This document shows, piece by piece, positions 35,965 through 46,973 of a stretch of DNA of 64,000 nt. A program made the position numbers and the translations under genes. The DNA is taken from positions 6,855 to 70,854 of IMG/VR virus record IMGVR_UViG_3300003322_000414. One strand, written 5' to 3'. This DNA is from a virus. The notes beneath the pieces are model-generated. The model saw only the letters and a program-made list of their open reading frames with translations, was not told the DNA's origin and did no database searches. The first letter of the stretch is position 1; every line of letters begins with the position of its first letter.

Positions 35965-36537
35965 TCACGCGGTGAGCTTGGCGTAGCAGGTGTCCCCGAT
36001 GCCGCGCTCTCGGGTGTGCTTCTGGGTCAGCGGGCTGCCGCACCGTCCACACGTCCCGACGTTCAGGCCGAACAGAGCGAACGCGGCGACCGGGTCGTCG
36101 GCGATCCGCTTGAGGATCTTCTCGGGCCTGTAGATGCGCTGCATCTTGAAGTCGCCAGGGGCACCGGTCAGCTCCCACAGGATGCGGTGTCGCGTCCCGC
36201 CGATGGCGTAGAACCGGATGTCCTCGTCGTCCTCGTTGCGCAGCGCGTACTTGCCGTTCTGCACCTTGGCGAAGAGCTCGTCCCTGCTCATGCCGGCATT
36301 CGGCTGCTTGAGCATCTTGGTCAGGAACTCTCCCATGGCCTTGCGGCCGAGCCCGGCGATGGCGAGGTGGTAGTCCTCCTCGCTCATCCCCTGGTACTCG
36401 GCCAGGCGCACCTTCTCACGACCCAGAGCCTGCGCGAGCGACATCTGCTTCTCGCTCGGCTGCCCCTCCTTCGTGGCGAAGCATCGCTTGACCTTCGCCA
36501 CGCTGTCGTGCTCACCCTTGCAGTTCCCGCATCGCAT
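35965..36537 (-). CDS. Zn-finger protein (DUF6011-like C-terminus)
   Basis: CGNC..H N-terminus; CGRCGSPLT..TRERGIGDTC C-terminus; coupled start. Confidence 0.65.
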   Translation of the reverse strand: MRCGNCKGEHDSVAKVKRCFATKEGQPSEKQMSLAQALGREKVRLAEYQGMSEEDYHLAIAGLGRKAMGEFLTKMLKQPNAGMSRDELFAKVQNGKYALRNEDDEDIRFYAIGGTRHRILWELTGAPGDFKMQRIYRPEKILKRIADDPVAAFALFGLNVGTCGRCGSPLTQKHTRERGIGDTCYAKLTA

Positions 36538-37553
36538 CAGCCGATCTCCTTCTTGCGACCACCCATGCGGTCCTGACCGATGTCCGCCGTGCGACCGTCG
36601 GCCTGGCCTCGGTAGTACGCCTCGCCGACGATGCGCTGCCGGTACCCCTTGCCGTCCTTGTGCCCCATGCTGGCCTTGAGCGCGTCCATCGCGTCCTGAA
36701 CCAGCTTGTTGCGGTCGAACAGCACGAGCTCCGCGCCGTTGGTGGACTTGATCTGGTCCTCGCGGTACTTGCGGAGCCGAGCGAACCGGTCCCGCACCTC
36801 GTTGAGGAAGCCCTGCGCGTAGGAGCGCTGGAAGGTGACCGGCGACTGCACCGCCCGGTAGGGCTCTCCGATCTCGGCAGCCCAGCGCTTGCACGCCTTG
36901 ATGAGCCTGCCACCGTCCTTGCGCTTCTCGTCCCAGGGCACCTCCTGCCAACCGGCCGTCTTCTCGTCGACGCGGAAGTTCCAGGTGTGGTCGGTGTCCT
37001 CCGGGATGCCCAGCCGGTCCAGACGACCGAGCTCCTTCTCCTCGTGGTACGCCTGGTTCATCAGGTGGGCGATGGTCTGCCACTTGATGCCCGACTCGTG
37101 GAGCAGGTAGACGTTCTCGTCGAACGACTTGCGCTTGTTGGGCTTGGGGTCGAGCTTCTGCAGGGCCTGGAGGCGGAGGGAGGTGTACACCATCTCCACC
37201 AGGTCCATGTTCGAGGGGAAGCCGACCAGGTAACCCGTGCCGGAGGTCCAGCCGAAGAACTCGCAGTCGTAGTGCTTGGCGACCGCGATGATCAGGTTGT
37301 ACCACTGGTTGCCGAGCTTGTCGTTTGCCGGCATGAACGTGATCACGCGCTGGTCGGGCTCCTCGACGATGCCCCCGGCGAGCTGCCGAGCGGCGCTCAG
37401 CATGGCCTCGTCAACGGCGTACTTCTGCATCAGCTGCTCGGCCTTGTCGAGGTATGCCTGCGCACCCTCGGGGTTGGTGTCGGTGAGCGACTGATACGTG
37501 TCGAGCAGGCCCTGGATCTTGGCCAGCATCGGGTTGGTGGTGTTGTCGGACAT
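36537..37553 (-). CDS. DUF2786-like domain protein; lies directly below hammerhead 1
   Basis: KIQGLL..AQAYLDKAEQLMQKYAVD N-terminus; SYAQGF..YYRGQADGRTADI C-terminus. Confidence 0.7.
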   Translation of the reverse strand: MSDNTTNPMLAKIQGLLDTYQSLTDTNPEGAQAYLDKAEQLMQKYAVDEAMLSAARQLAGGIVEEPDQRVITFMPANDKLGNQWYNLIIAVAKHYDCEFFGWTSGTGYLVGFPSNMDLVEMVYTSLRLQALQKLDPKPNKRKSFDENVYLLHESGIKWQTIAHLMNQAYHEEKELGRLDRLGIPEDTDHTWNFRVDEKTAGWQEVPWDEKRKDGGRLIKACKRWAAEIGEPYRAVQSPVTFQRSYAQGFLNEVRDRFARLRKYREDQIKSTNGAELVLFDRNKLVQDAMDALKASMGHKDGKGYRQRIVGEAYYRGQADGRTADIGQDRMGGRKKEIG

Positions 37554-37568
37554 GTGCGAATCTCCTCG

Positions 37569-37620
37569 GGACTCGTCAGCACCGGTACCTTACCGGCGGA
37601 CGCCTCACGGCGTTTCGTCC
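37569..37620 (-). ncRNA. type II hammerhead ribozyme HH1
   Basis: RNA: GGAC GAAA CGCC-GUGA-GGCG UC^ CGCCGGU-AAGGU-ACCGGUG CUGACGA GUCC; predicted cut between 37599 and 37598, 45 nt before the AUG at 37553. Confidence 0.9.
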
Positions 37621-37632
37621 TAGGTTGAGGGA

Positions 37633-37782
37633 TCAGAAGAAGATGGTCCACAGCAGCAGACCGACGATGATTGCACCGGCGAGGAACGCTCCGAGCAGGA
37701 CGGCCGTGGCGATCAGGCAGCAGCCCTTGCCATCGCGGTCCATGTCGTGCTTCTTCCACCAGTTGCTCATGTAGCTCGCCAT
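37633..37782 (-). CDS. small membrane protein
   Basis: 49 aa with a C-terminal hydrophobic helix. Confidence 0.5.
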   Translation of the reverse strand: MASYMSNWWKKHDMDRDGKGCCLIATAVLLGAFLAGAIIVGLLLWTIFF

Positions 37783-37966
37783 CAGCCCAGAGCCTCCCAC
37801 AGCGGCTTGACCGCCGGGTTGGTTGCCGGCATCTGTGGCGGCTCCTCGGTGACCCAGACGTCCTGCTCTTCGTTCACGTTGTGCTCCTACCTTAGCCACG
37901 TCCAGAGGATGTACACAGCCAGCAGGACGAGGCCGGTGATGACCTCGTCCCGCGACCACTTGCCCA

Positions 37967-38443
37967 TCAGTACTGCGTCGTCTCCACGAACCCGCCGTCG
38001 TCCGTCCCGAAGTCGCTCGGGGCGTTCTCGTCGGCGATGCCGAACTCGCTGCGACGACGCTGCTCGTCCTTGGAGACCAGCTTCATCTCTCGACCCTTGA
38101 AGTCGATGCCGATGCTGTACTTGGCCTTGAGCTCGTGGACCAGCCACGCCGGGTTGATCCACAGGGGCACGTACATCTTGCCGTTGTTGGCCAGCTCGAT
38201 GTAGGCCGACTTGAGCAGCTCGTCGCAGCCCATCTCGCGGAGCGTCTTGGGGAGCTCCAGCATGTCGGGCGTCGGGTCCGTGTTGCACGGCCGGAGGTTG
38301 TAGTCAACCTCGTCGTTGGCCTCGTCGCGCAGCCGGAGCCGGTTGATCGCGTCGTTGGCCTTGCCCTCGTCGGTGAAGACGGCCACGATCTCCTCGCGGT
38401 CCTCCTCGACGAGAACCTTCCAGATGATGTGCACCTGGTCCAT
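37967..38443 (-). CDS. hypothetical protein below hammerhead 2
   Basis: AUG 38443 follows CCAAGGAGG; the longer ORF-track start would run through the ribozyme. Confidence 0.7.
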   Translation of the reverse strand: MDQVHIIWKVLVEEDREEIVAVFTDEGKANDAINRLRLRDEANDEVDYNLRPCNTDPTPDMLELPKTLREMGCDELLKSAYIELANNGKMYVPLWINPAWLVHELKAKYSIGIDFKGREMKLVSKDEQRRRSEFGIADENAPSDFGTDDGGFVETTQY

Positions 38444-38456
38444 GAATCCTCCTTGG

Positions 38457-38509
38457 GGACTCCTCAGCAGCGCCATCCAGCGCCGGACGCCCGGTTGGGC
38501 GTTTCGTCC
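38457..38509 (-). ncRNA. type II hammerhead ribozyme HH2
   Basis: RNA: GGAC GAAA CGCCC-AACC-GGGCG UC^ CGGCGCU-GGAU-GGCGCUG CUGAGGA GUCC; cut 38486/38485, 42 nt before the AUG. Confidence 0.9.
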
Positions 38510-38575
38510 TTGGTCGCAGGGCACCTGGCCCGAGGGACTCGTGGTCTCCTCTGGGCCAGGGCCGTCTGTGGGGTG

Positions 38576-39049
38576 TTACTTCTTGGCGGCGGTCCGACGC
38601 GTCCGGCGCACCGGCTGCTTCGGCTTGTCCTCCGCCTTGGGCTCGTCGGCGGCCTCGGTGGCCGTCTCCGCGCCGTTCTCGGCCTCCGCCTCACCCGTGG
38701 GCTCGGCCTCCGCCGTCGGGGCCTCGGCGGGCTCCTCGGGCTTCGGCTCGTCGGCGGCGGTCTCGCCCTTGAGCTTGGCGAGCTCCGCCTCCAGCTTGGC
38801 GAGCTTCCGGGCCTTGGCCTCTTCCGCCTTCTTGGCGGCCGCAGCCTTGCGCTCGGCGAGAGCCTTCTGGTTCTCCTCGGAGGACTGGAAGTCCATCCGC
38901 ATGATGGTAACGAGCTGGACCGTCTTCAGGTCGACGTCGACGCCCGTCTTCTCCTTGAGCCAGTCCGCGAACTGCTTGTGCAGCTCGGTGGGCTCGGCAG
39001 CCGCACGCTCAGCGAAGGTCTTCTTGCTGGGGGTGTTGTTCTCGGCCAT
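38576..39049 (-). CDS. paralog family member 2, flanked by hammerheads 3 and 2
   Basis: PTELHKQFADWLKEKTGVDVDLKTVQLVTIMRMDFQSSEENQ; AUG 39049 after CCAAGGAGG. Confidence 0.8.
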   Translation of the reverse strand: MAENNTPSKKTFAERAAAEPTELHKQFADWLKEKTGVDVDLKTVQLVTIMRMDFQSSEENQKALAERKAAAAKKAEEAKARKLAKLEAELAKLKGETAADEPKPEEPAEAPTAEAEPTGEAEAENGAETATEAADEPKAEDKPKQPVRRTRRTAAKK

Positions 39050-39065
39050 GGTGTTTCCTCCTTGG

Positions 39066-39129
39066 GGACTCATCGGCACCGGCATCCACCGGCGGACGAG
39101 CAGCGCTTCCCAGCGGGCTCGTTTCGTCC
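39066..39129 (-). ncRNA. type II hammerhead ribozyme HH3 (variant core CCGAUGA)
   Basis: RNA: GGAC GAAA CGAGC-(15 nt)-GCUCG UC^ CGCCGGU-GGAU-GCCGGUG CCGAUGA GUCC; cut 39095/39094. Confidence 0.8.
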
Positions 39130-39546
39130 TTGTTTGTTGCGTGCCGGCATCTCCTCCTTGCGGAGTGCGGTTGCCGGCAGACCGGCCGCCCTTTCGACTT
39201 CCTGGCCAGAGGGTGCTCATCGGAGTTTCTCACGTGACCCAGGCTTGAAGAGGACAGCTTCCGTCGCTCGCTAGCAGCTTTCAGTACCGCCCGGCTGTGT
39301 GCGCTTCCGACGCCCGCAGTGGGTGTCGGCTGCCCGTCCTCGGGAAGTCCAGTCGCTTCGCTCGCAACTACCGGTTTTGAGGAGTCCGGCTCCTGTCTAG
39401 AGTCAGCGGCCAGGACCGAAGTCCTGTGCGCGATCGCAGCCGTCTCTCTTGGCTGTCCTGCTCGGGTTCGCGGTCTTCGGGCGGAACCTCGACCCTCGGC
39501 CAGACCGGCCATCCGGGGAGTTCGTTCCTTGCCCTCGTCGCTTCCT
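39130..39546 (-). ncRNA. candidate structured non-coding RNA B (unrecognised), paralog of RNA A
   Basis: Lies between a promoter (39554-39583) and HH3; 59/74 identity with 43338-43411 including a 1-nt indel; no RBS-led ORF. Confidence 0.65.
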
Positions 39547-39553
39547 GAGTAGA

Positions 39554-39583
39554 ACTATGCGCCAGATCCGGGCGGAAGGCAAC
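39554..39583 (-). promoter_or_regulatory. promoter GTTGCC-N18-CATAGT driving RNA B
   Basis: Aligns with the promoter of RNA A (shared AGTTCTAC..AAGCGA start region). Confidence 0.6.
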
Positions 39584-39730
39584 AACCCATCTACCTGGGC
39601 ATTCACCGCGTTTGCGCAGGTAGAAGCATGTGCGAACTTCCCAAAACTTTTTCTGACAATTTTCGAACCCTGAGGCCGGCATGAGTGCGACGCGTATCGG
39701 TGTCATGCCGGCCTCTCAGGGCGAATCGGG

Positions 39731-40129
39731 CTATTCGATCGTGCGGTAGGAGATGTTCAGCTGCTGTGCAGCCTGCTTCCGGATGATGTCCAGGACGAAC
39801 TCGTCGCGGTCCTCGGGCAGGATGGCCAGCCACTGCTGGCGCGGGATCATCAGCCAGCCCTGAGCAGTCGTGGCGGCCGGTCCGAAGCCGATCGTGTACC
39901 GCACCTCGACGGAGTCGAAGATGTCCTGGAGCGGCTCGGCCTGCTTGGGGATCCAGCAGCTCGGGCACTTGGTGACCGGCTTCCAGTCCTGCGCCTCTTC
40001 CAGCGTCATGCGGCGCGGAGGGTGCACCTCGTTGCCGTTGCGCCGTGCTGCCTCCTGTCCAGCCACGATCTGCCGGCATGCAGCCGTCTGGTGGTACGAG
40101 TCGCCTCGCGCCGTTACGTACACGTCCAT
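39731..40129 (-). CDS. hypothetical protein (Cys/His-containing N-terminal domain)
   Basis: AAGGA RBS; YH..AAC..KCPSC. Confidence 0.65.
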   Translation of the reverse strand: MDVYVTARGDSYHQTAACRQIVAGQEAARRNGNEVHPPRRMTLEEAQDWKPVTKCPSCWIPKQAEPLQDIFDSVEVRYTIGFGPAATTAQGWLMIPRQQWLAILPEDRDEFVLDIIRKQAAQQLNISYRTIE

Positions 40130-40230
40130 GGTGCTTGTCCTTGCTCGTCGTTGTATGGGCGTCTGCCGAGAGATCGGAGCCCCGGCCTCCCAAGGGGACG
40201 ACCGGGGCTCCTGCGGGCCTTACGGGGCTG

Positions 40231-40605
40231 TCAGAGCGCCTTCAGCGCGTACAGCCGGTTGTCCTCGTCGCGCACGACCAGGCTTCCGTCCTGCATCTCG
40301 CCGACCTGCTCGAAGAGGCCCAGGGACTTGCCGGCATTCGGGTTGGCCTTCTCCGAGGTGTCCGGCTTGGACAGGCTCTCCAGCCTCCAGCTGTTGCCCC
40401 GGCTGACGACGGTGATGTCCATCGCCTCGCCCTCGACCAGCCGACGCATCGCGCCACGGACGGACGCCGGGTTGGCACCGGAGGGCAGGTAGCCCATGAT
40501 GTCGTCCAGCGTGACCACGATGCCCGCGTTCATGCGCAGGAAGCTGACGACCTTCGGCTCGACCGACATGCGGGACGAACCGGTGTTGCTCTTGCCTCGA
40601 ACCAT
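40231..40605 (-). CDS. putative winged helix-turn-helix DNA-binding protein
   Basis: VVTLDDIMGYL..PASVRGAMRRLV..RGNSWRL; CCAAGGAGG RBS. Confidence 0.55.
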   Translation of the reverse strand: MVRGKSNTGSSRMSVEPKVVSFLRMNAGIVVTLDDIMGYLPSGANPASVRGAMRRLVEGEAMDITVVSRGNSWRLESLSKPDTSEKANPNAGKSLGLFEQVGEMQDGSLVVRDEDNRLYALKAL

Positions 40606-40625
40606 GGTGCTGTCCTCCTTGGGGA

Positions 40626-41030
40626 CTAGTTGTCGTACTTGACGGTGATGGACTTGTTCGTGGCGACGGGCGCGCAGCCACGCTCGGGGAACTCGACGAG
40701 GTCGTCGTCGGCCAGCTGAAGCCACAGCTCCCCGCGCTCCAGCTCGTTCAGGCGTCCGCCCTTGGCGATCTCCGCCTTGTGCTCGGCGTGGGCGAACAGG
40801 AACAGCGCGCGGAGCTCCATCAGGGAGTAGCGCGACGACAGCGCCTCGCGGACGTGCGGACGGGTCTGGTCGCGCTTGTCGCGGGAGCCCAGCCGGTACA
40901 TCGCCAGCTGGTACTCGGTGGCGAACTCCAGGTGGTCCTCGAACGTGTCGGGGTCCAGCTTGATGCCCGTCGCTTCCGCGACAGTGGCGGCGTCGAACGC
41001 CACCTGGATGCGATGCTTGCGGTCGTACAT
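40626..41030 (-). CDS. hypothetical protein below hammerhead 4
   Basis: AUG 41030 after CCAAGGAGG. Confidence 0.7.
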   Translation of the reverse strand: MYDRKHRIQVAFDAATVAEATGIKLDPDTFEDHLEFATEYQLAMYRLGSRDKRDQTRPHVREALSSRYSLMELRALFLFAHAEHKAEIAKGGRLNELERGELWLQLADDDLVEFPERGCAPVATNKSITVKYDN

Positions 41031-41046
41031 GGTGAATCCTCCTTGG

Positions 41047-41099
41047 GGACTCGTCAGGAGTGCCATCCAGCACCCGACCTCCTTTCGGAGGTTTCGTCC
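41047..41099 (-). ncRNA. type II hammerhead ribozyme HH4
   Basis: RNA: GGAC GAAA CCUCC-GAAA-GGAGG UC^ GGGUGCU-GGAU-GGCACUC CUGACGA GUCC; cut 41076/41075; begins 5 nt after the upstream stop codon. Confidence 0.92.
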
Positions 41100-41104
41100 T
41101 TGCC

Positions 41105-41293
41105 CTACAGGTCCTTGAGCACCTCGCGGATGCAGTCCTCGCTCATGAACGGGTAGTCCCGCCGGATGAGCGCGGCGATCTGCTCCTTGCGCTCTACCGA
41201 CGGCGTCGCCGCCTGGACCGGCTCGGTCGCAGCGCGTCCAGGAACGCGCCGAGCAAGTCGGCCAACAAGTCGATCAAGAACATCTCGCATCAC
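41105..41293 (-). CDS. hypothetical protein
   Basis: Coupled GTGA start. Confidence 0.5.
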   Translation of the reverse strand: MMRDVLDRLVGRLARRVPGRAATEPVQAATPSVERKEQIAALIRRDYPFMSEDCIREVLKDL

Positions 41294-41691
41294 TCGCTCT
41301 CTCGCTTGGTCACCGGGATGAGGAGCCCCTGCTCGCTCATCGACACCATCTTGCAGAAGCCGACGAGCTCTCGCACGACGCGCGGGGGCGCGCTGTGGAT
41401 GACGACGTAGTCCTTGTTGACCACACCGTCGAAGATCGCGGCGGTCGACATCTTGACGACCAGTCCGCAGTTCATCAGGTACTCGTACACGGCCTTGCGG
41501 TCGTTGTCCATCTCGTTGTCCTCCTTGGGGACTTGGTTATGCGAGGTCCATGCCGGCATCGTAGCCGCACTGTGCGTGCGCCCACACGGTCTCCGTGCGG
41601 TCGGTGGTGATGAACAGCCCCATCTCGTTGTCCGCGTCCTCGTCGCAGAGCTGGCAGCTGTCGTCGTCCATCAGGTCGCGTTCGTCGTCCA

Positions 41692-42003
41692 TTACACCGG
41701 GTCAATCTTGTCGAGGTAGCGGCGCATGGCCGCTCGGACGGACTGGGGCTTGACGCCGAAGCGCTTCGCCAGACGGCCGACCGAGTGGCAGTCGCCGCCC
41801 TCCTTCAGGTACGCCCCGTACAGCTGCGCTCCCTGGAGCGGGAGCCGCTTGTACTGTCGCGGCTTGTGGCCGTTGCGGAGCAGCACCTTCCGGATCGTGC
41901 TCTCGTTGACGCCCAAGCTGCGGGCCGTCGCCGAGTTGTTCTTGCCGTGCTCGCGCCACGCCTTGACGACCTCGTCGTCGCTAGGCAGCGGAACCAGACC
42001 CAT
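41692..42003 (-). CDS. double helix-turn-helix protein below hammerhead 5
   Basis: NNSATARSLGVNESTIRKVL and VGRLAKRFGVKPQSVRAAMRRY. Confidence 0.75.
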   Translation of the reverse strand: MGLVPLPSDDEVVKAWREHGKNNSATARSLGVNESTIRKVLLRNGHKPRQYKRLPLQGAQLYGAYLKEGGDCHSVGRLAKRFGVKPQSVRAAMRRYLDKIDPV

Positions 42004-42017
42004 GACATCCTCCTGGG

Positions 42018-42086
42018 GGACTCGTCAGTACGGCCACACAGCCGCAGACCGCCCGGTCCTGTGGTAGCGACCGGGCGGTTTCGTCC
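42018..42086 (-). ncRNA. type II hammerhead ribozyme HH5
   Basis: RNA: GGAC GAAA CCGCCCGGUC-(10 nt)-GACCGGGCGG UC^ UGCGGC-UGUGUG-GCCGUA CUGACGA GUCC; cut 42047/42046. Confidence 0.9.
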
Positions 42087-42097
42087 TGGGGTGTTGC

Positions 42098-42682
42098 TTA
42101 GCTGTCCAGCGCGGGGCAGCAGGGCTTCAGGTCGTAGCCCATGTAGTTGTCCTCCAGGCTGCTCTCACCCGAGTCGATCATGTCGCTGTAGATCAGGCGG
42201 GTCAGCTCGGTGTGGCTCCGGACCTCGGCGGTCTCCTTGGTGAAGCCCTTGGCGCGGGTGAACTTCTTGAGGTCGTTGCAGCCGAACTTGTGGACCTCGG
42301 GCTCGCCGTTGCCGTACAGGACCGTCAGCTTCTGGACCGGACCCGGCTCCTCGGTCTTGGCCTCCTCGACCGGCTCAGCCGTCTCGGTCTTGGCCTCGCC
42401 CTTGATCTCGGCGAGCATCTTCTCCAGCTTGGCCTTCTTGCGCTCGGCCGACGCCTTCTTGGCCGCCGCCGCCTTGGCCTTGCGCTCGGCCAGCGCCTGC
42501 TGGTTCTCGGGGCTCGCCTGGAAGTCGTGGCGCAGGACCGTCACCAGCTGAACCGTCTTCAGGTCAACCCGGACGCCGGTCTGGACGTACAGCCACTGGG
42601 CGAAGTCCTCGTGGAGCTGGGTCGGAGCCTTGGCGGCGATCGCCTCGTAGTTCTTCGGGGTCTTGTTCTCGTTGCGGGCCAT
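42098..42682 (-). CDS. paralog family member 3, with an additional C-terminal domain
   Basis: PTQLHEDFAQWLYVQTGVRVDLKTVQLVTVLRHDFQASPENQ; own promoter and CCAAGGAGG RBS. Confidence 0.8.
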   Translation of the reverse strand: MARNENKTPKNYEAIAAKAPTQLHEDFAQWLYVQTGVRVDLKTVQLVTVLRHDFQASPENQQALAERKAKAAAAKKASAERKKAKLEKMLAEIKGEAKTETAEPVEEAKTEEPGPVQKLTVLYGNGEPEVHKFGCNDLKKFTRAKGFTKETAEVRSHTELTRLIYSDMIDSGESSLEDNYMGYDLKPCCPALDS

Positions 42683-42727
42683 GGGGTCCTCCTTGGGGAC
42701 TCTCGTTCGGTCGGCCTTACAGTAACT

Positions 42728-42757
42728 ACTATACTCCATGTGCAGCCGTTTCGCTAC
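42728..42757 (-). promoter_or_regulatory. repeated early promoter GTAGCG-N18-TATAGT
   Basis: Exact motif and spacing, repeated seven times in 42.7-47 kb. Confidence 0.8.
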
Positions 42758-42821
42758 TCTGGAGTGCAACTTGTTTGCCGGCAAGCCGGGGGAGCTGGGG
42801 GCTCCCCCGGTGCCGTCGTGC

Positions 42822-43013
42822 TTACCGCTGGATCTCGTCCGGACCAGGCGTGCCGAGCGGGTTCTCGACCTGGATCAGGTCGCGCCCGTCGGACTCGGTC
42901 GGGAGCGGCCGGTCCACGATCGGACCGGACGCACCGCCCGTGTTGGACTGTCCCTTGGGGCCGGTTCCGTTCGGCGGGTTGCTCGCCTGCGGGGTCCGCT
43001 TGGGCAGTGCCAT
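42822..43013 (-). CDS. small P/G-rich protein below hammerhead 6
   Basis: AUG after CCAAGGAGG. Confidence 0.6.
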   Translation of the reverse strand: MALPKRTPQASNPPNGTGPKGQSNTGGASGPIVDRPLPTESDGRDLIQVENPLGTPGPDEIQR

Positions 43014-43031
43014 GGTGGTTCCTCCTTGGTG

Positions 43032-43102
43032 AGGCTCCTCAGGAGCGCCGTTCAGCGCCCGACCTGCAAGCCGGCATGTGATCCGACCTGCAGGTTTCGC
43101 CT
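43032..43102 (-). ncRNA. type II hammerhead ribozyme HH6
   Basis: RNA: AGGC GAAA CCUGCAGGUCGG-AUCACAUG-CCGGCUUGCAGG UC^ GGGCGCU-GAAC-GGCGCUC CUGAGGA GCCU; stem II covaries (GGAC/GUCC to AGGC/GCCU); cut 43061/43060. Confidence 0.9.
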
Positions 43103-43434
43103 TGATTGTGTTGCGCAGGCGTCGGTGGGACCTACCATCCGCTCCGCCTGCTCGCTCCGCCCTCGCGCCTTGCCAACCTCTCGGATGTTCTCTCGTGGGG
43201 TGGCTGGTTCCGTGTCTCCCTAGCCAGTCCCGCGTCCGTCCCCGAGGAGTTGCGCGCTACTACCTTCGCTGCCGTTTTCTTGTGGAGGGTCGGTGCCCTG
43301 TCTCCGACGCTGCATTTGCTGCTACCGACCTGTCGCCTGGCCGCCTTGCTCGGTGTTCGCGTTCTTCGGGTGGAGCCTCGACCGTCGGCTGGAGTCGCCG
43401 TCCCGGGAGTTTCGCTCGCCGCCCTCTCGCTTAC
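43103..43434 (-). ncRNA. candidate structured non-coding RNA A (unrecognised), paralog of RNA B
   Basis: Lies between promoter 43442-43471 and HH6; no - strand ORF with a start codon; homologous to 39450-39522. Confidence 0.65.
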
Positions 43435-43441
43435 AGGTAGA

Positions 43442-43471
43442 ACTTTACTCCAAGTCGCACACCTCCGCTAC
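43442..43471 (-). promoter_or_regulatory. early promoter GTAGCG-N18-TAAAGT driving RNA A
   Basis: Exact motif match. Confidence 0.8.
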
Positions 43472-43700
43472 CCTCAGCCCACCTGGTCATTCACCGTAAA
43501 CCCTCAGGTAGTTGAGCCGGCAACTTCTTCCAAGATTTTTTCAGAATTCTTAAAGCCTGAGGCCGGCATGAGTCTGGCCCGGCGCGTCGCTACGTGGCCG
43601 TCTGCGGGCCTCTCGCGGGCGAGCGCGCCCAGTTGGGCCGGTCGGGGCTGCGCGCCACGGAGACGACCAGCGAGCCACGCGCACGACCCCAGAACGCAGC

Positions 43701-43733
43701 GGAGCCCCGCTCCCTTGTCAGGGGCGGGGCTCC
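43701..43733. terminator. GC-rich hairpin terminator
   Basis: 13-bp stem just after the 43746 stop. Confidence 0.55.
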
Positions 43734-43745
43734 GGGTTGGGCCGG

Positions 43746-44105
43746 TCAGTCGCGGCAGCGAGCCAGCGCCCGGTAGGCCGCCTGCATCGCCTTGCGCTCG
43801 TAGGCCTCGCGGGTGTTCTGGATGGCGGAGGTGGAGCCGCCGACGTTGCCCTCGATCAGGGCCTCGGCCGCGTCCTCCAGCCACTCCTCGATGGCGCGCA
43901 TGCCGGCACGGTTCCAGCGGGTCTGGAGCTTGGCGGTCAGGTCGGCGTTGGCCTGCGCCTCCAGCAGGTTCTCCAGCGTCCCCGGCAGGACCAGCTCGCC
44001 AGCCGCGAAGGAGGCGGTGATCCGGCTCTGGACGGTCAGCAGGGTCTGCGCGGCGGACTGGGCGATGCGCTCGACGGTGGCGGCGGTACGCTCGGAGTTC
44101 ATCAT
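43746..44105 (-). CDS. early hypothetical protein
   Basis: Own promoter and CCAAGGAGG RBS. Confidence 0.75.
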   Translation of the reverse strand: MMNSERTAATVERIAQSAAQTLLTVQSRITASFAAGELVLPGTLENLLEAQANADLTAKLQTRWNRAGMRAIEEWLEDAAEALIEGNVGGSTSAIQNTREAYERKAMQAAYRALARCRD

Positions 44106-44159
44106 GGTGGCCTCCTTGGGGCCTCGGGGGAGAGCCTTGCGCTCTCCCTTACAGTAAGA

Positions 44160-44189
44160 ACTATACTCCATCTGCAGCGGTTTCGCTAC
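44160..44189 (-). promoter_or_regulatory. early promoter GTAGCG-N18-TATAGT
   Basis: Exact motif match. Confidence 0.8.
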
Positions 44190-44273
44190 TCTGCAGTGAA
44201 GATTTCTTGCAGTCCTTCTACTGCCTCAGGCCCGCACCCCGGTGTGGGATGCGGGCCGGTTGCCGGCAGGTGC

Positions 44274-44633
44274 TCAGCCCTCCAGGGGCAGCGCGGGCGG
44301 CGTGTATCCCGTCCGCTCGATCGCCACGATCAGCATCGCCCGCAGCGCCGGGACGTCGGGCGAGTCCGAGTTGACCACGTCTTCGTACAGCTCACGCGCG
44401 GTCGCCTCCAGGTCGGTCACCAGCTCCATGTTCTCCGGGACCATCGCGTCGTACATGTCGCAGTTGCAGTGCGAGAAGCTGCCGCAGCCGCACCCCGTCG
44501 CCTTGAGCGAGAACAGCTCGCCGGTCTCGTCCTTGATGACCAGCATCGCGACGCCCGCCAGGTCGTAGTTCTCCTGCGTGATGTCCACGTCGCCGAGGAC
44601 CGTGTAACCGGGGATCGTGTAGTCGCTGCTCAT
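44274..44633 (-). CDS. early hypothetical protein (GCGCGSFSHCNC Cys cluster)
   Basis: Own promoter and CCAAGGAGG RBS. Confidence 0.7.
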   Translation of the reverse strand: MSSDYTIPGYTVLGDVDITQENYDLAGVAMLVIKDETGELFSLKATGCGCGSFSHCNCDMYDAMVPENMELVTDLEATARELYEDVVNSDSPDVPALRAMLIVAIERTGYTPPALPLEG

Positions 44634-44671
44634 GGCTGCCTCCTTGGGGCTTCGTTCGGGCTGTTGATAGA

Positions 44672-44701
44672 ACTTTACTCCATCTGCAGTCCGGGCGCTA
44701 C
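44672..44701 (-). promoter_or_regulatory. early promoter GTAGCG-N18-TAAAGT
   Basis: Exact motif; tandem TGCCGGCA pair just upstream (44721-44736). Confidence 0.8.
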
Positions 44702-44785
44702 CCCTTTGTGCAGATTTCTTTGCCGGCATGCCGGCAAGGGCAGAGCCCCGGCTCCGCTGGGGAACCGGGGCTCGCCTGCGTGCGA

Positions 44786-45109
44786 TCAGTGCATCGTGTC
44801 GATCGGGTTGGCCGGGATGATCGCCTTGACGCCCCGGAACTCCCCGGCGTCCACGATCGCGCCGAGCTCCGTCTGGAGCAGCGTTGCCAGCCACGTGGCG
44901 TCGATGTGGTCGGGGACCTCCCAGAAGCCGTCCAGCGCGACCTGCTCCTCGATGGCGGTGAGCAGGTCCTCCCGCATCTCGACCAGCTCGTCGGTGGTCT
45001 TCTCCTTCATCAGGGTCGGCACGACCGGGTTGAGCCGGTTGAGGTCGTACGACAGCACCGACACGACGATCGCGATCTGATGCTTCTCGTGCTCGGCCGA
45101 GTGGACCAT
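44786..45109 (-). CDS. early hypothetical protein
   Basis: CCAAGGAGG RBS; promoter GTTTAC-N18-TATAGT at 45164-45193; hairpin at 44743-44773. Confidence 0.7.
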   Translation of the reverse strand: MVHSAEHEKHQIAIVVSVLSYDLNRLNPVVPTLMKEKTTDELVEMREDLLTAIEEQVALDGFWEVPDHIDATWLATLLQTELGAIVDAGEFRGVKAIIPANPIDTMH

Positions 45110-45275
45110 GGTGCCCTCCTTGGGGGCTTGGGGCCGACCCTCGCGGTCGGCCTTACACTAAGAACTATACCCCATCTGGAGTCTGGAGTAAACCCCTTCT
45201 GGGAAACTTGTTGTATGGCCATCTGCCGAGACGGCCGCCTCCCGGTGGGGGAAGCGGCCGTGGGCGTTGCCTCGG

Positions 45276-46046
45276 TCAGCAGGAGACGCAGACGCGGCGC
45301 TCCTTGACGGTCGGCATGCCGTAGTAGACCGGCTTGGGCGAGCCGTCCTCGTTCTTGTACTCGATCGGCTCCGACACGATCTTGGAGTTGGCGTAGGTCA
45401 CGGCCTTGCGGCAGTCGGAGCAGATGGCCGTCGTGTGGGTCGCCCAGACGCGGTAGTCGACCGGGACCGAGCCCGGCTTGTGCAGCTCCGAGGCGTCCGT
45501 CCCCTGGGTCGCTGCCGGCACGCCGGGGACCTGGACCACGTAGCTGAACCGGGGTGCCCAGGCGGTCGCCTGCTTGTGGTCCACGACCTTGGTGACCACC
45601 ACGTTGCCGGCAGGGATGCAGTAGCCGTGCGGGCGGGCTCCGGGCAGGAAGTACAGCTCGTCGCCGACCTGGTGCTCGGCACCCTCGACGATCTCCGGCT
45701 TGTCCTGGGTCGTGATGACCGGGGTGTCCTCGTACTTGTCCGACAGCTCCTGGTCGGCCAGGCTGTCGTAGGCCTCCGCCTCGGCGGCGATGGCGGCCAG
45801 CGCGGCCTTCTCGCAGGTCTTGCAGACCTTGCGACCGCCGGTGATGCGGGCGGCGTCCAGCGCCTCCTGGAGGCCCTCGAAGGAGGCTCCCTGGGCCAGG
45901 CGGCCACGGGTCAGGACGCCACAGGCGTTCTCGGCGTAGTAGGCCACGACCCCGGTCTCGGCCGAGCGGTCCGTCTCCGGGCCGGTGGTCTTGCAGGCGA
46001 TCCCGGCGATGTGGTTCGTGGCGCGGTTGTAACGGATGCTGAACAC
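45276..46046 (-). CDS. early hypothetical protein with Zn-ribbon motifs
   Basis: GTG after CCAGGAGG; CKTC, CSDC and CVSC motifs. Confidence 0.7.
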   Translation of the reverse strand: MFSIRYNRATNHIAGIACKTTGPETDRSAETGVVAYYAENACGVLTRGRLAQGASFEGLQEALDAARITGGRKVCKTCEKAALAAIAAEAEAYDSLADQELSDKYEDTPVITTQDKPEIVEGAEHQVGDELYFLPGARPHGYCIPAGNVVVTKVVDHKQATAWAPRFSYVVQVPGVPAATQGTDASELHKPGSVPVDYRVWATHTTAICSDCRKAVTYANSKIVSEPIEYKNEDGSPKPVYYGMPTVKERRVCVSC

Positions 46047-46091
46047 GGTTGCCTCCTGGGGGCTTCGGTCGTTCCCTGCCTTACGAGAGTA

Positions 46092-46121
46092 ACTATACTC
46101 CAGATTGGAGGTCGGCGCTAC
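46092..46121 (-). promoter_or_regulatory. early promoter GTAGCG-N18-TATAGT
   Basis: Exact motif match. Confidence 0.8.
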
Positions 46122-46287
46122 CCTCTTCTGAGGATTTGTTGAATCGGATTTGCCGGCATCTGCAGGGGGCTGGAGGGCTGAGCCGCATAGGTTAAAGCCC
46201 AGCGGACCTCCAGATGCCGGCATATGGCCATCTCCACATGCAGAGAGGCCCGCCCTCCGGAGTGGAGAGCGGGCCTCGCCGGGTCGG

Positions 46288-46560
46288 TCAGATCTCGCCG
46301 TCGAACTCGACCAGGTGGGCGTAGTCCAGGTCCATCGCGTCGGGGTCGGCGTCCAGGACCTCGATCATCTTGTAGCCGACCGGGTTGACGTCGTCCATCG
46401 CGGCCCAGTAGGCGTAGGCCTCGGACTCGCCGGGGAAGTGCTCGATGACCTCGTGCCACTGGCCACGGATCCGGCCGGTCGCCTCGACCGTGCCCTCGAT
46501 CTCCTGGGTCGCGCGGATCCGGGCGATCAGCGCCTCGTTGGTGTTCTCGGCGTCGAACAT
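46288..46560 (-). CDS. early hypothetical acidic protein
   Basis: CCAAGGAGG RBS; hairpin at 46245-46277 after the stop. Confidence 0.7.
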   Translation of the reverse strand: MFDAENTNEALIARIRATQEIEGTVEATGRIRGQWHEVIEHFPGESEAYAYWAAMDDVNPVGYKMIEVLDADPDAMDLDYAHLVEFDGEI

Positions 46561-46598
46561 CTTGGCCTCCTTGGGGCTCTCACTTGCTGACAGTAGTA

Positions 46599-46628
46599 AC
46601 TATACCCTACGCGGGGTGGAGGCGCTAC
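46599..46628 (-). promoter_or_regulatory. early promoter GTAGCG-N18-TATAGT
   Basis: Exact motif match. Confidence 0.8.
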
Positions 46629-46650
46629 CCTCCACCCCGGTTGGATTTGA

Positions 46651-46902
46651 CTACTTGGCGTCGGGCTGGAAGGTCTCGCCGATCCAGTAGCCGGTGCCCA
46701 CCGCGCCCCACAGCACCGTCTGGTAGCCCTTGCCCTTCATCTCCGTGGAGAGCTTGGCCAGGGACTCGGCGTTGTTCCGGACCTTGCGGACCTCCAGCAC
46801 CTGGCGGTCCTCGCCGTAGCCGGTCTTGAAGGCGGCGGTCGCCCAGCCGTTGCGGCCGACGCGGTACTCGATGCGGATCTTGGGGAGCTGGTTCTCGGTC
46901 AT
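46651..46902 (-). CDS. early hypothetical protein
   Basis: CCAAGGAGG RBS. Confidence 0.7.
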   Translation of the reverse strand: MTENQLPKIRIEYRVGRNGWATAAFKTGYGEDRQVLEVRKVRNNAESLAKLSTEMKGKGYQTVLWGAVGTGYWIGETFQPDAK

Positions 46903-46943
46903 TCGGGTTGCCTCCTTGGGGCGTTCTCTCGCTTACAGTAAGA

Positions 46944-46973
46944 ACTATACTCCATTCTGCAGGTCCGCGCTAC
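46944..46973 (-). promoter_or_regulatory. early promoter GTAGCG-N18-TATAGT
   Basis: Exact motif match. Confidence 0.8.

What the first reader, a model, noticed from the sequence alone, without database searches (positions are those of the whole stretch)
37569..43102. Six hammerhead ribozymes, each fused to a ribosome-binding site: a candidate self-cleaving mRNA-processing system in the phage early region
Seen: six - strand elements (37569-37620, 38457-38509, 39066-39129, 41047-41099, 42018-42086, 43032-43102) have the full type II hammerhead order: stem II 5' strand, GAAA, stem III hairpin, GUC^, stem I hairpin, CUGANGA, stem II 3' strand. Stems I and III differ in sequence and length yet stay paired (first stem I pair C-G, G-C or U-A), and stem II covaries (GGAC/GUCC versus AGGC/GCCU). 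In all six, stem II runs straight into the Shine-Dalgarno (for example GUCC-CCAAGGAGG), and the cut lies 42-47 nt before the AUG. Established: this core self-cleaves after GUC, giving 5'-OH and 2',3'-cyclic phosphate ends. Inference: the phage cuts its polycistronic early transcript into units that each start with a 5'-OH, a terminal hairpin and the same strong RBS, like a natural version of the synthetic RiboJ insulator. This could standardise translation and protect against 5'-monophosphate-stimulated decay. Single hammerheads in phages are known; I do not know of a described array coupled to RBSs like this.
Basis: partly seen in the sequence, partly recalled or inferred. Interest (0 to 1): 0.95.

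Follow-up and report, generated by a model that had tools for sequence, protein, structure and literature searches.

The report
Hammerhead ribozyme array before phage genes
Six small self-cutting RNA motifs (type II hammerhead ribozymes) sit just before the ribosome-binding sites of six genes of a Streptomyces-type phage; they are conserved in related cultured phages, but such ribozyme arrays between phage genes have been known since 2011.

Summary
My descriptor scan finds exactly six type II hammerhead motifs on the - strand, none elsewhere in the 74.5-kb genome and none in 100 shuffles. Each folds alone into the three-way junction. The cut lies 42-47 nt before the AUG. One (39066-39129) has a U4C core change.

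Six cultured Streptomyces phages (about 81-83% identical; Yara much more distant) carry 6-8 each, on one strand in one ~7-kb region, unannotated. Across 44 distinct copies every core base is invariant, N7 takes all four bases and H17 is never G. Of stem cells, 98.9% pair (74.7% shuffled), and 12 of 17 pairs show compensatory changes.

The novelty claim fails. Perreault et al. 2011 described clustered hammerheads flanking prophage genes, proposed processing into gene-length mRNAs and showed cleavage in vitro. More than 120 IMG/VR contig stretches match the pattern, with arrays of up to 7. There, 74% of 163 motifs have an SD-like motif and start 8-45 nt downstream, against 13% of random positions. 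This scan has reported similar arrays on other DNA at least eight times.

Additions: two ribozymes end paralogous non-coding leaders; the same RBS module serves genes without a ribozyme; Rfam's threshold misses this pseudoknot-less subgroup. Cleavage is untested. Verdict: new member of a known kind.

The parts
43032..43102 (-). HH1: type II hammerhead. Stem II AGGC/GCCU, stem III 13 bp, stem I 7 bp. Cut between 43061 and 43060. It ends the ~370-nt non-coding leader A and precedes the 63-aa gene.
   Evidence: Descriptor scan; model R1 77.4 bits; MFE is the hammerhead fold, z -3.37.
42018..42086 (-). HH2: type II hammerhead, GGAC/GUCC. Cut between 42047 and 42046. Intercistronic: it starts 11 nt after the stop of gene 42682-42098 and precedes the HTH gene.
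   Evidence: Rfam RF02276 23.4 bits, below threshold.
41047..41099 (-). HH3: type II hammerhead, GGAC/GUCC. Cut between 41076 and 41075. Intercistronic, before gene 41030-40626.
39066..39129 (-). HH4: type II hammerhead with core CCGAUGA (U4C; the C is at 39075). Cut expected between 39095 and 39094. It ends the ~450-nt non-coding leader B and precedes gene 39049-38576. It is near-identical in five relatives.
   Evidence: 94 bits in all relatives; Rfam 23.9 bits.
38457..38509 (-). HH5: type II hammerhead, GGAC/GUCC. Cut between 38486 and 38485. Before gene 38443-37967.
37569..37620 (-). HH6: type II hammerhead with an 8-bp stem I. Cut between 37599 and 37598. Before the 338-aa gene 37553-36537 (DUF2786/DUF7168).
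   Evidence: Rfam 26.2 bits; Pfam.
43011..43031 (-). RBS (AAGGAGG) and ATG after HH1. The equivalent RBS-plus-start stretches follow the other five: 42001-42017, 41028-41046, 39047-39065, 38441-38456 and 37551-37568.
   Evidence: Read from the sequence; start codons and distances.
43442..43471 (-). Phage promoter motif GTAGCG-N18-TAAAGT that drives leader A, HH1 and the 63-aa gene.
   Evidence: 7 exact matches on the - strand against 0.05 expected.
42728..42757 (-). The same promoter motif. It starts the transcript that carries gene 42682-42098, HH2 and HH3.
   Evidence: its 5' UTR was read.
39554..39583 (-). Variant of the promoter (-10 CATAGT), upstream of leader B and HH4.
43061..43434 (-). 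Leader A: non-coding stretch between the promoter and the HH1 cut. Its 5' ~150 nt are homologous to leader B.
   Evidence: Alignment A4; no SD-preceded ORF.
39095..39546 (-). Leader B: non-coding stretch between the promoter variant and the HH4 cut. Paralogue of leader A.
   Evidence: Alignment A4.
42686..42700 (-). RBS module GUCCCCAAGGAGGAC with no ribozyme. It also occurs at 41518-41532 and 40612-40626.
   Evidence: weak partial R1 hits.

Best explanation
These are six self-cleaving type II hammerhead ribozymes in the leftward-transcribed arm of a Streptomyces-type phage, in a region of small genes upstream of the replication genes. As each is transcribed, stems III and I fold and the 4-bp stem II closes the junction. 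The RNA then cuts itself after C17. The two products are held together only by stem II, so they separate. The upstream RNA ends in the stem III hairpin plus UC with a 2',3'-cyclic phosphate. The downstream RNA begins with a 5'-OH flush against the 7-8-bp stem I hairpin. About 11 single-stranded nt, a consensus AAGGAGG Shine-Dalgarno and the AUG follow, 42-47 nt from the cut. Four ribozymes (HH2, HH3, HH5, HH6) split multi-gene transcripts. Two (HH1, HH4) detach 370-450-nt non-coding leaders from the first gene. The likely result is gene- or block-length mRNAs with hairpin-capped ends and a uniform 5' UTR like that of the phage's promoter-proximal genes. That would uncouple their stability and translation from upstream sequence. 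Shown here: motif, fold, covariation, core conservation, placement. Inferred: cleavage in vivo, hairpin protection, any effect on expression. HH4 (U4C) probably cuts more slowly.
For: Exactly six motifs in the genome and none in 100 shuffles. The hammerhead fold is the MFE and centroid for all six. Model R1 finds 48 copies in the window plus six related phages. 98.9% of stem cells pair against 74.7% in shuffles and 32-50% in slid controls, and 12 of 17 pairs have compensatory changes. In 44 distinct copies G12 A13 A14, A15.1-U16.1, C3, G5, A6, G8, A9 and G10.1-C11.1 are invariant. N7 takes all four bases and H17 is C or A, never G. All six positions are kept in the five ~82%-identical relatives. 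Whole-genome counts are 6, 8, 6, 7 and 8, all on one strand in one region. All six lie between ORFs, just 5' of an SD and start. Every promoter-less spacer of 75-135 nt except one (40231-40129) holds one (read). Published precedent (PMC3088659): tandem hammerheads in prophages cleave in ~2-kb native transcripts in vitro, and one set also in E. coli. The HF1/HF2 hammerhead sits 13 nt before a start codon, and the transcript's mapped 5' end lies within 3 nt of its cleavage site. Three type II hammerheads cleave in Desulfovibrio vulgaris in vivo (PMC8782182).
Against: No cleavage data exist for these sequences. Rfam RF02276 does not reach its gathering score. The loop I-tail pseudoknot that supports fast cleavage in many type II hammerheads is not detectable (2.56 bp against 2.30 with shuffled tails), so the tertiary contact is unknown. 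HH4 carries U4C, which is reported to lower activity considerably in vitro (PMC3088659). With downstream context, predicted folds of four of six replace stem II by a GUCC-SD hairpin, and HH3 prefers another fold. In two RNA-labelled metagenome runs, contigs span HH1, HH4 and HH5 uncut, although DNA in those libraries cannot be excluded.
Confidence: 0.8

Rival explanations
1. The main job is to make defined non-coding RNAs. HH1 and HH4 form the 3' ends of two paralogous 370-450-nt leader RNAs, which would then act on their own. The RBS adjacency would just reflect tight packing.
For: Leaders A and B each start at a copy of the phage promoter, hold no SD-preceded ORF, share about 150 nt of homology and end exactly at a hammerhead. 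HH4 and its surroundings are nearly invariant among relatives.
Against: Four of the six ribozymes follow protein-coding ORFs, not leaders. In viral contigs generally this hammerhead type sits before starts. This reading is not exclusive of the best explanation.
Confidence: 0.25
2. The ribozyme state controls translation. The stem II 3' strand (GUCC, or CCUC in HH1) is complementary to part of the SD, so it pairs either with the upstream GGAC (active ribozyme, free SD) or with the SD. This would couple folding or cleavage to ribosome access.
For: MFE folds with downstream context show the GUCC/GGAG(GA) hairpin in place of stem II in four of six. RBS modules without a ribozyme have the same potential hairpin, GUCC-CCAAGGA-GGAC. 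Two of three GAUC-type stem II variants have GAUC right after the SD.
Against: The hairpin has only 3-4 bp. Complementarity is not kept in the GUCU-type copies and in only some GCUC-type copies (read). Cleavage would free GUCC to mask the SD, which is the wrong direction for an activating switch.
Confidence: 0.1
3. The units are cassette boundaries at the DNA level. Conserved ribozyme-plus-RBS modules would act as recombination hot spots that shuffle small early genes, with RNA cleavage secondary.
For: Stem III hairpins are exchanged between non-orthologous sites in relatives, and extra gene-plus-ribozyme units appear in ShakeNBake and Dryad. CCAAGGA-like sequence flanks both sides of the elements.
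Against: Compensatory changes and a perfectly kept catalytic core show selection on the RNA, not only on DNA identity. N7 varies freely while its neighbours never do.
Confidence: 0.1
4. Segments between consecutive ribozymes are ligated into circular or spliced RNAs. This could use the shared GGAC/GUCC stem II to rebuild a chimeric hammerhead, or a host RtcB-type ligase.
For: The ends (5'-OH and 2',3'-cyclic phosphate) are ligatable, and five of six ribozymes share the same stem II.
Against: Perreault et al. looked for spliced or circular products of tandem prophage hammerheads and detected none (PMC3088659). The joints seen in RNA-run contigs do not link cut sites.
Confidence: 0.04
5. The motifs are structured but catalytically dead RNA elements, for example protein-binding or decay-blocking hairpins that only resemble hammerheads.
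For: They fall below the Rfam threshold, show no pseudoknot, and one copy has U4C.
Against: Thirteen core positions are invariant in 44 distinct copies, with variation exactly at N7 and H17. Plain hairpins would not require this.
Confidence: 0.04

Closest known systems
Clustered hammerhead ribozymes flanking genes in prophages (Perreault et al. 2011, PLoS Comput Biol, PMC3088659)
   Same: Several hammerheads lie within a few kb on one strand between small phage genes of varying identity. Type II topology is common. The proposed role is processing of long phage transcripts into operon- or gene-length mRNAs.
   Different: Here there are 6-8 per genome in cultured, apparently lytic Streptomyces phages, where I found no report. 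Stem II runs within 2-5 nt into a consensus SD. There is no loop I-tail pseudoknot. Two copies end non-coding leaders. None is annotated in GenBank.
Hammerhead of haloarchaeal viruses HF1/HF2 (discussed in PMC3088659)
   Same: The ribozyme sits a few nt before the start codon of the first gene of an early polycistronic transcript. The transcript's mapped 5' end lies within 3 nt of its cleavage site.
   Different: That is a single copy, a salt-adapted core variant, in an archaeal virus.
Rfam RF02276 Hammerhead_II
   Same: Same core, same order of helices and same open stem II.
   Different: Scores are 23-26 bits against a gathering score of 37. The Rfam consensus has a 2-bp stem II, a longer stem I and a pseudoknotted 3' tail. 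Only 3 matches passed the threshold in 14 loci rich in descriptor-positive hammerheads.
RiboJ synthetic insulator (a hammerhead plus hairpin placed before an RBS; from my own knowledge)
   Same: It works alike on paper: self-cleavage removes variable upstream RNA and leaves a standard structured 5' end before the RBS.
   Different: RiboJ is an engineered satellite-RNA hammerhead with an added hairpin. The phage elements are natural type II hammerheads whose own stem I is the 5' hairpin. No insulation has been measured.
Hammerhead-interspersed vrRNA arrays of VIPR systems (bioRxiv 10.64898/2026.04.26.720920)
   Same: Phage-encoded arrays in which hammerheads separate functional RNA units.
   Different: vrRNAs consist of 9-16 GGY/NN repeats. 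This genome has no run of even four such units, and the units here are protein genes.

Membership tests
Hammerhead ribozyme (criteria of Perreault et al. 2011, PMC3088659, methods) | Consensus core: C3 U4 G5 A6 N7 G8 A9, G12 A13 A14, A15.1-U16.1, H17 | tested here: met
   Met by five of six elements in the window. The core is invariant across 44 distinct homologues, with N7 free and H17 = C or A.
Hammerhead ribozyme (criteria of Perreault et al. 2011, PMC3088659, methods) | The same core criterion applied to the element at 39066-39129 (HH4) | tested here: not met
   Its core reads CCGAUGA, that is U4C, in the window and in all five close relatives. U4C is a known natural viroid variant with reduced activity in vitro. 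HH4 is therefore a core variant, not a consensus member.
Hammerhead ribozyme (criteria of Perreault et al. 2011, PMC3088659, methods) | No mispair next to the core in stems I, II or III, and no multiple mispairs in short stems | tested here: met
   G10.1-C11.1 and A15.1-U16.1 are invariant. Pair 1.1-2.1 is C-G, G-C or U-A. 98.9% of stem cells pair.
Hammerhead ribozyme (criteria of Perreault et al. 2011, PMC3088659, methods) | Helices supported by covariation | tested here: met
   12 of 17 pairs show changes on both sides. The covariation score is 0.571, against 0.157 in shuffles (0 of 500 reach it) and 0.05-0.09 in slid controls. Caveat: the alignment was fitted to the model.
Hammerhead ribozyme (criteria of Perreault et al. 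2011, PMC3088659, methods) | Mg-dependent self-cleavage 3' of H17 | not testable with these tools
   Contigs from RNA-labelled runs were inconclusive.
Type II hammerhead (Rfam RF02276) | Stems I and III closed by loops, stem II open | tested here: met
Type II hammerhead (Rfam RF02276) | Score at or above the curated gathering score (37 bits) | tested here: not met
   The best scores are 26.2, 23.9 and 23.4 bits, and three elements are not reported at E <= 10. The threshold also misses nearly all descriptor-positive copies in viral contigs. This is an operational cut-off, not a structural definition.
Type II hammerhead (Rfam RF02276) | Pseudoknot of 4 or more bp between loop I and the 3' tail (present in a majority of type II members, so not strictly defining) | tested here: not met
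   The best complementarity is 2-3 bp (UGG:CCA at most). The mean is 2.56 bp against 2.30 with shuffled tails, and it does not covary.
Clustered phage hammerheads (Perreault et al. 2011) | Several hammerheads close together on one strand, flanking single genes or short gene blocks of a phage | tested here: met
   Six in 5.5 kb on the - strand, all between ORFs. The phage context is shown by 81-83% identity to Streptomyces phages.
VIPR ribozyme-vrRNA array | vrRNAs made of 9-16 tandem GGY/NN units between the ribozymes | tested here: not met
   No run of 4 or more GGYNN units on either strand of the genome.

The most novel reading that the evidence does not exclude
In this phage group, ribozyme cleavage and a dedicated phage promoter would be two interchangeable ways of giving each early gene the same short 5' UTR and RBS module. 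The complementarity between the stem II 3' strand and the SD, and the slow U4C copy, would add cleavage-dependent timing of translation and of leader-RNA release. That would make the array a natural, tunable RiboJ-like expression system rather than simple transcript trimming.
Probability: 0.15. Interest if true: 0.7.

Novelty: new member of a known kind. Interest (0 to 1): 0.4.

Why it matters
What self-cleaving ribozymes do in bacteria and phages is still an acknowledged open question (review PMC6765202). These arrays sit in phages that are in culture with named laboratory hosts: Wentworth and Gibson on S. griseus, and ShakeNBake, Dryad and Rooney on S. viridochromogenes. Each phage has 6-8 ribozymes at defined gene starts, one naturally weakened copy, and neighbouring genes that use the same RBS without a ribozyme. 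That offers a convenient system for asking by mutation what cleavage contributes. The results also show that the Rfam threshold misses a widespread pseudoknot-less subgroup of type II hammerheads, so phage annotations under-report them.

Tried and rejected
- **Rfam at gathering threshold.** No hit in the window. At E <= 10 only three sub-threshold hits appeared.
- **Loop I-3' tail pseudoknot.** Not above the shuffled control and not covarying.
- **Stem II 3' strand pairing with the SD as a switch.** MFE folds predict it, but support from stem II variants is mixed (read). I kept it only as a minor rival.
- **RNA evidence.** Four RNA-labelled metagenome runs hold relatives, but only as undirected Logan contigs. 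Some contigs span HH1, HH4 and HH5. In X17 none of the listed pieces crosses a cut site and gaps fall on HH4 and HH5. At 3-8x depth, and with DNA possible in the libraries, this decides nothing.
- **Contig breaks at ribozymes in X16.** These are 30-nt overlaps, that is graph branch points, not RNA ends.
- **Literature.** I found no paper linking hammerheads with Streptomyces phages or actinobacteriophages. The two hits are versions of one aminoglycoside study. I did not open it; from the title it looks unrelated.
- **Protein functions of the ribozyme-led genes.** Mostly unknown: one HTH protein, one DUF2786/DUF7168 protein and two phrog_20596 paralogues. They gave no functional clue.
- **Generic promoter and terminator scan.** Uninformative. 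The phage's own promoter motif was informative.

Full report
**Observation.** I read the - strand of 37400-43300. I then wrote a descriptor for a type II hammerhead. It asks for the stem II 5' strand, GAAA, a stem III hairpin closed by A15.1-U16.1, a non-G at position 17, a stem I hairpin, C(U/C)GANGA and the stem II 3' strand.

- It returns nothing else on either strand, even with shorter stems or one core mismatch, and nothing in 100 dinucleotide-preserving shuffles.
- The whole genome (74,517 nt; the window is 6855-70854) holds no further copy.
- Folded alone, each element has the three-way junction as both minimum-energy and centroid structure.
- C17 lies at 43061, 42047, 41076, 39095, 38486 and 37599. 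The cut-to-AUG distances are 47, 43, 45, 45, 42 and 45 nt.
- Rfam finds nothing at its gathering score. At E <= 10, RF02276 Hammerhead_II hits three of the six at 26.2, 23.9 and 23.4 bits against a threshold of 37.

**Relatives.** The region is 81-83% identical to the Streptomyces phages Wentworth, ShakeNBake, PHTowN, Lizz, phiRKBJ001, Rooney, Gibson and Dryad. Yara shares only a 42-nt match. No ribozyme is annotated in any of the fetched records.

- My descriptor finds 4-8 motifs in each of the six fetched loci, all directly 5' of an SD and start.
- A covariance model built from the six window copies (A1, R1) finds 48 copies at E < 1e-7 in the window plus six loci.
- Over whole records it finds 6, 8, 6, 7 and 8 copies in Wentworth, ShakeNBake, phiRKBJ001, Dryad and Yara. 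All are on one strand within about 52-60 kb.
- All six window positions are occupied in the five close relatives. ShakeNBake and Dryad have extra gene-plus-ribozyme units.

On the 44 distinct sequences, 98.9% of stem cells form standard pairs. The figure is 74.7% after shuffling partners (0 of 500 shuffles reach the observed value) and 32-50% with slid partners. Twelve of 17 pairs show changes on both sides. The alignment was fitted to the model, which favours pairing. The descriptor hits show the same compensations without the model.

Column counts give the expected hammerhead signature.

- G12 A13 A14, A15.1-U16.1, C3, G5, A6, G8, A9 and G10.1-C11.1 are invariant.
- N7 is C, G, U or A.
- H17 is C (41) or A (3), never G.
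- U4 is C only in the orthologues of HH4.
- Stem II occurs as GGAC/GUCC, AGAC/GUCU, GAUC/GAUC, GAGC/GCUC and AGGC/GCCU.

No relative keeps the RBS while degrading the core.

**Setting.** A phage-specific promoter motif, GTAGCG-N18-TAWAGT, occurs seven times on the - strand between 42728 and 46973, against 0.05 expected.

- Upstream of 43.5 kb, each small gene has its own copy, a 20-50-nt 5' UTR and the RBS module (A/G)GCC-CCAAGGAGG-C.
- From 43.5 kb down to 36.5 kb, promoters are rare and hammerheads appear.
- The promoter at 43442-43471 is followed by about 370 nt without an SD-preceded ORF, then HH1 and a 63-aa gene.
- A promoter variant at 39554-39583 is followed by about 450 nt, then HH4 and gene 39049-38576.
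- The two leaders share about 150 nt of clear homology at their 5' ends (A4).
- HH2, HH3, HH5 and HH6 lie between ORFs, starting 5 to 66 nt after the preceding stop.
- Three further genes (RBS at 42700, 41532, 40626) use GUCCCCAAGGAGGAC with no ribozyme.

The strong RBS is therefore the phage's general early-gene module. The stem II 3' strand is simply its first four bases in the ribozyme-led genes.

The genes served are mostly of unknown function: an HTH protein, a DUF2786/DUF7168 protein and two phrog_20596 paralogues. Downstream on the same strand lie nucleotide-metabolism and replication genes, as annotated in relatives (dCMP deaminase and helicase). 'Early' is thus a reasonable but unproven label.

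**Mechanism.** By the established chemistry of the class, cleavage 3' of C17 gives a 2',3'-cyclic phosphate and a 5'-OH. In the type II arrangement the cut falls between two closed hairpins. The upstream product ends in stem III (5-13 bp here) plus UC>p. The downstream product begins flush with stem I (7-8 bp, GC-rich). Only the 4-bp stem II holds the halves together, so they should part and re-ligation should be rare.

I infer that both new ends are protected by terminal hairpins. I also infer that the downstream mRNA gets a uniform 5' UTR close to that of the promoter-proximal genes. Whether a 5'-OH protects is doubtful in a host with RNase J. From my own knowledge, the 5'-OH product of the glmS ribozyme is degraded by RNase J1 in Bacillus subtilis. 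The flush hairpin is therefore the better candidate for protection.

HH4's U4C is a known natural variant. It is reported to lower activity considerably in vitro yet to suffice in a viroid (PMC3088659). Its strict conservation, with nearly invariant surroundings (94 bits in every relative), suggests a slower or regulated cut at the leader B junction.

**Open points.**

- The loop I-tail pseudoknot typical of many type II hammerheads is not detectable: 2.56 bp against 2.30 bp with shuffled tails, and UGG:CCA does not covary. Other conserved features might make the tertiary contact. These are an invariant A just 5' of stem II, a G-U at the second stem I pair (39 of 44) and a U-G or U-A closing pair.
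- With downstream sequence included, predicted folds of four of six replace stem II with a short hairpin between GUCC and the SD, and HH3 prefers another fold. Co-transcriptional order favours stem II. Covariation support for the alternative is mixed.
- Four RNA-labelled metagenome runs hold relatives, but only as undirected contigs. Some span HH1, HH4 and HH5. In run X17 none of the listed pieces crosses a cut site. This is inconclusive.

**Comparison with what is known.** Perreault et al. 2011 (PMC3088659) reported all of the following.

- Type II hammerheads and the pseudoknot.
- Natural core variants.
[quoted passage not shown] - In vitro cleavage of three tandem arrangements.
- A halovirus hammerhead 13 nt before a start codon, where the transcript's mapped 5' end lies within 3 nt of the cleavage site.

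A 2019 review still lists the purpose as unresolved (PMC6765202).

Of 163 such motifs, 74% have an SD-like motif and the start of an ORF of at least 60 aa 8-45 nt after the core, against 13% of random positions in the same loci. Only 3 matches in 14 loci rich in descriptor-positive motifs pass Rfam's threshold.

Start-codon proximity and clustering are therefore general properties of this hammerhead subgroup, not a peculiarity of this phage. Earlier follow-ups in this scan reached the same verdict on similar arrays in at least eight other genomes.

Hammerhead-interspersed vrRNA arrays of VIPR systems (bioRxiv 10.64898/2026.04.26.720920) are excluded. The genome has no GGYNN repeat tract.

**Verdict.** The mechanism is well supported by sequence and comparison but untested at the bench. 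The novelty claim is not upheld.

I did not find the following in the searched literature:

- the occurrence in cultured Streptomyces phages;
- the 2-5-nt fusion of stem II to a consensus SD that is shared with ribozyme-less genes;
- the two leader-RNA junctions;
- the conserved U4C copy;
- the blind spot of the Rfam threshold for this subgroup.

I class it as a new member of a known kind, with moderate interest as a tractable test system.

Noticed in passing
window 43061-43434 and 39095-39546 (- strand): Two paralogous non-coding leaders. Each starts at a copy or variant of the phage promoter and ends at a hammerhead. About 150 nt at their 5' ends are clearly homologous. They could be stable RNAs released by cleavage.
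   Followed up: partly
window 42728-46973 (- strand): The promoter-like motif GTAGCG-N18-TAWAGT occurs seven times exactly, against 0.05 expected. Most copies are followed by a short 5' UTR, the CCCCAAGGAGG RBS and one small gene.
   Followed up: partly
window 42686-42700, 41518-41532, 40612-40626; promoter cassettes at 44.1-47 kb: The early-gene RBS module is flanked by short inverted repeats (GUCC...GGAC or GCC...GGC). It could therefore form a small hairpin that presents or partly masks the SD, with or without a ribozyme upstream.
   Followed up: no
alignment A3 (48 hammerheads from the window and L001-L006): Conserved features outside the catalytic core: an invariant A just 5' of stem II, G-U at the second pair of stem I (39 of 44), U at the seventh stem I position (44 of 44) and a small loop of GGAU or GAAC type. 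They may make the unknown tertiary contact that replaces the pseudoknot.
   Followed up: no
L002:3106-3179, L004:3617-3690, L003:3703-3776, L005:5058-5131: The same stem III hairpin (CCCGGC...GCCGGG) precedes the HTH gene in two phages and the MYDRK-type gene in two others. Ribozyme modules or their parts are therefore exchanged between sites.
   Followed up: no
L008, L016, L017, L024, L025, L043, L065, L069, L110, L112, L116 (IMG/VR): Viral contigs of very different G+C (about 0.4-0.6) carry arrays of 4-7 GGAC/GUCC-type type II hammerheads. Rfam's gathering score detects only 3 matches in the 14 loci tested.
   Followed up: partly
window 42098-42682 and 38576-39049 (- strand): Two paralogous genes (both phrog_20596, unknown function). 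One is led by a promoter plus RBS, the other by leader B plus the U4C hammerhead.
   Followed up: no
window 42786-42810, about 40180-40225, 39668-39721, about 38520-38560 (- strand): Long GC-rich hairpins lie after genes, mostly without a U tract. They may be terminators or decay barriers, and one lies just upstream of HH5.
   Followed up: no
window 36500-44500: Sequencing runs from several soil and root metagenome studies, some labelled RNA, hold about 55% of the sampled 31-mers of this region. Close relatives of this phage therefore seem widespread in soil.
   Followed up: partly
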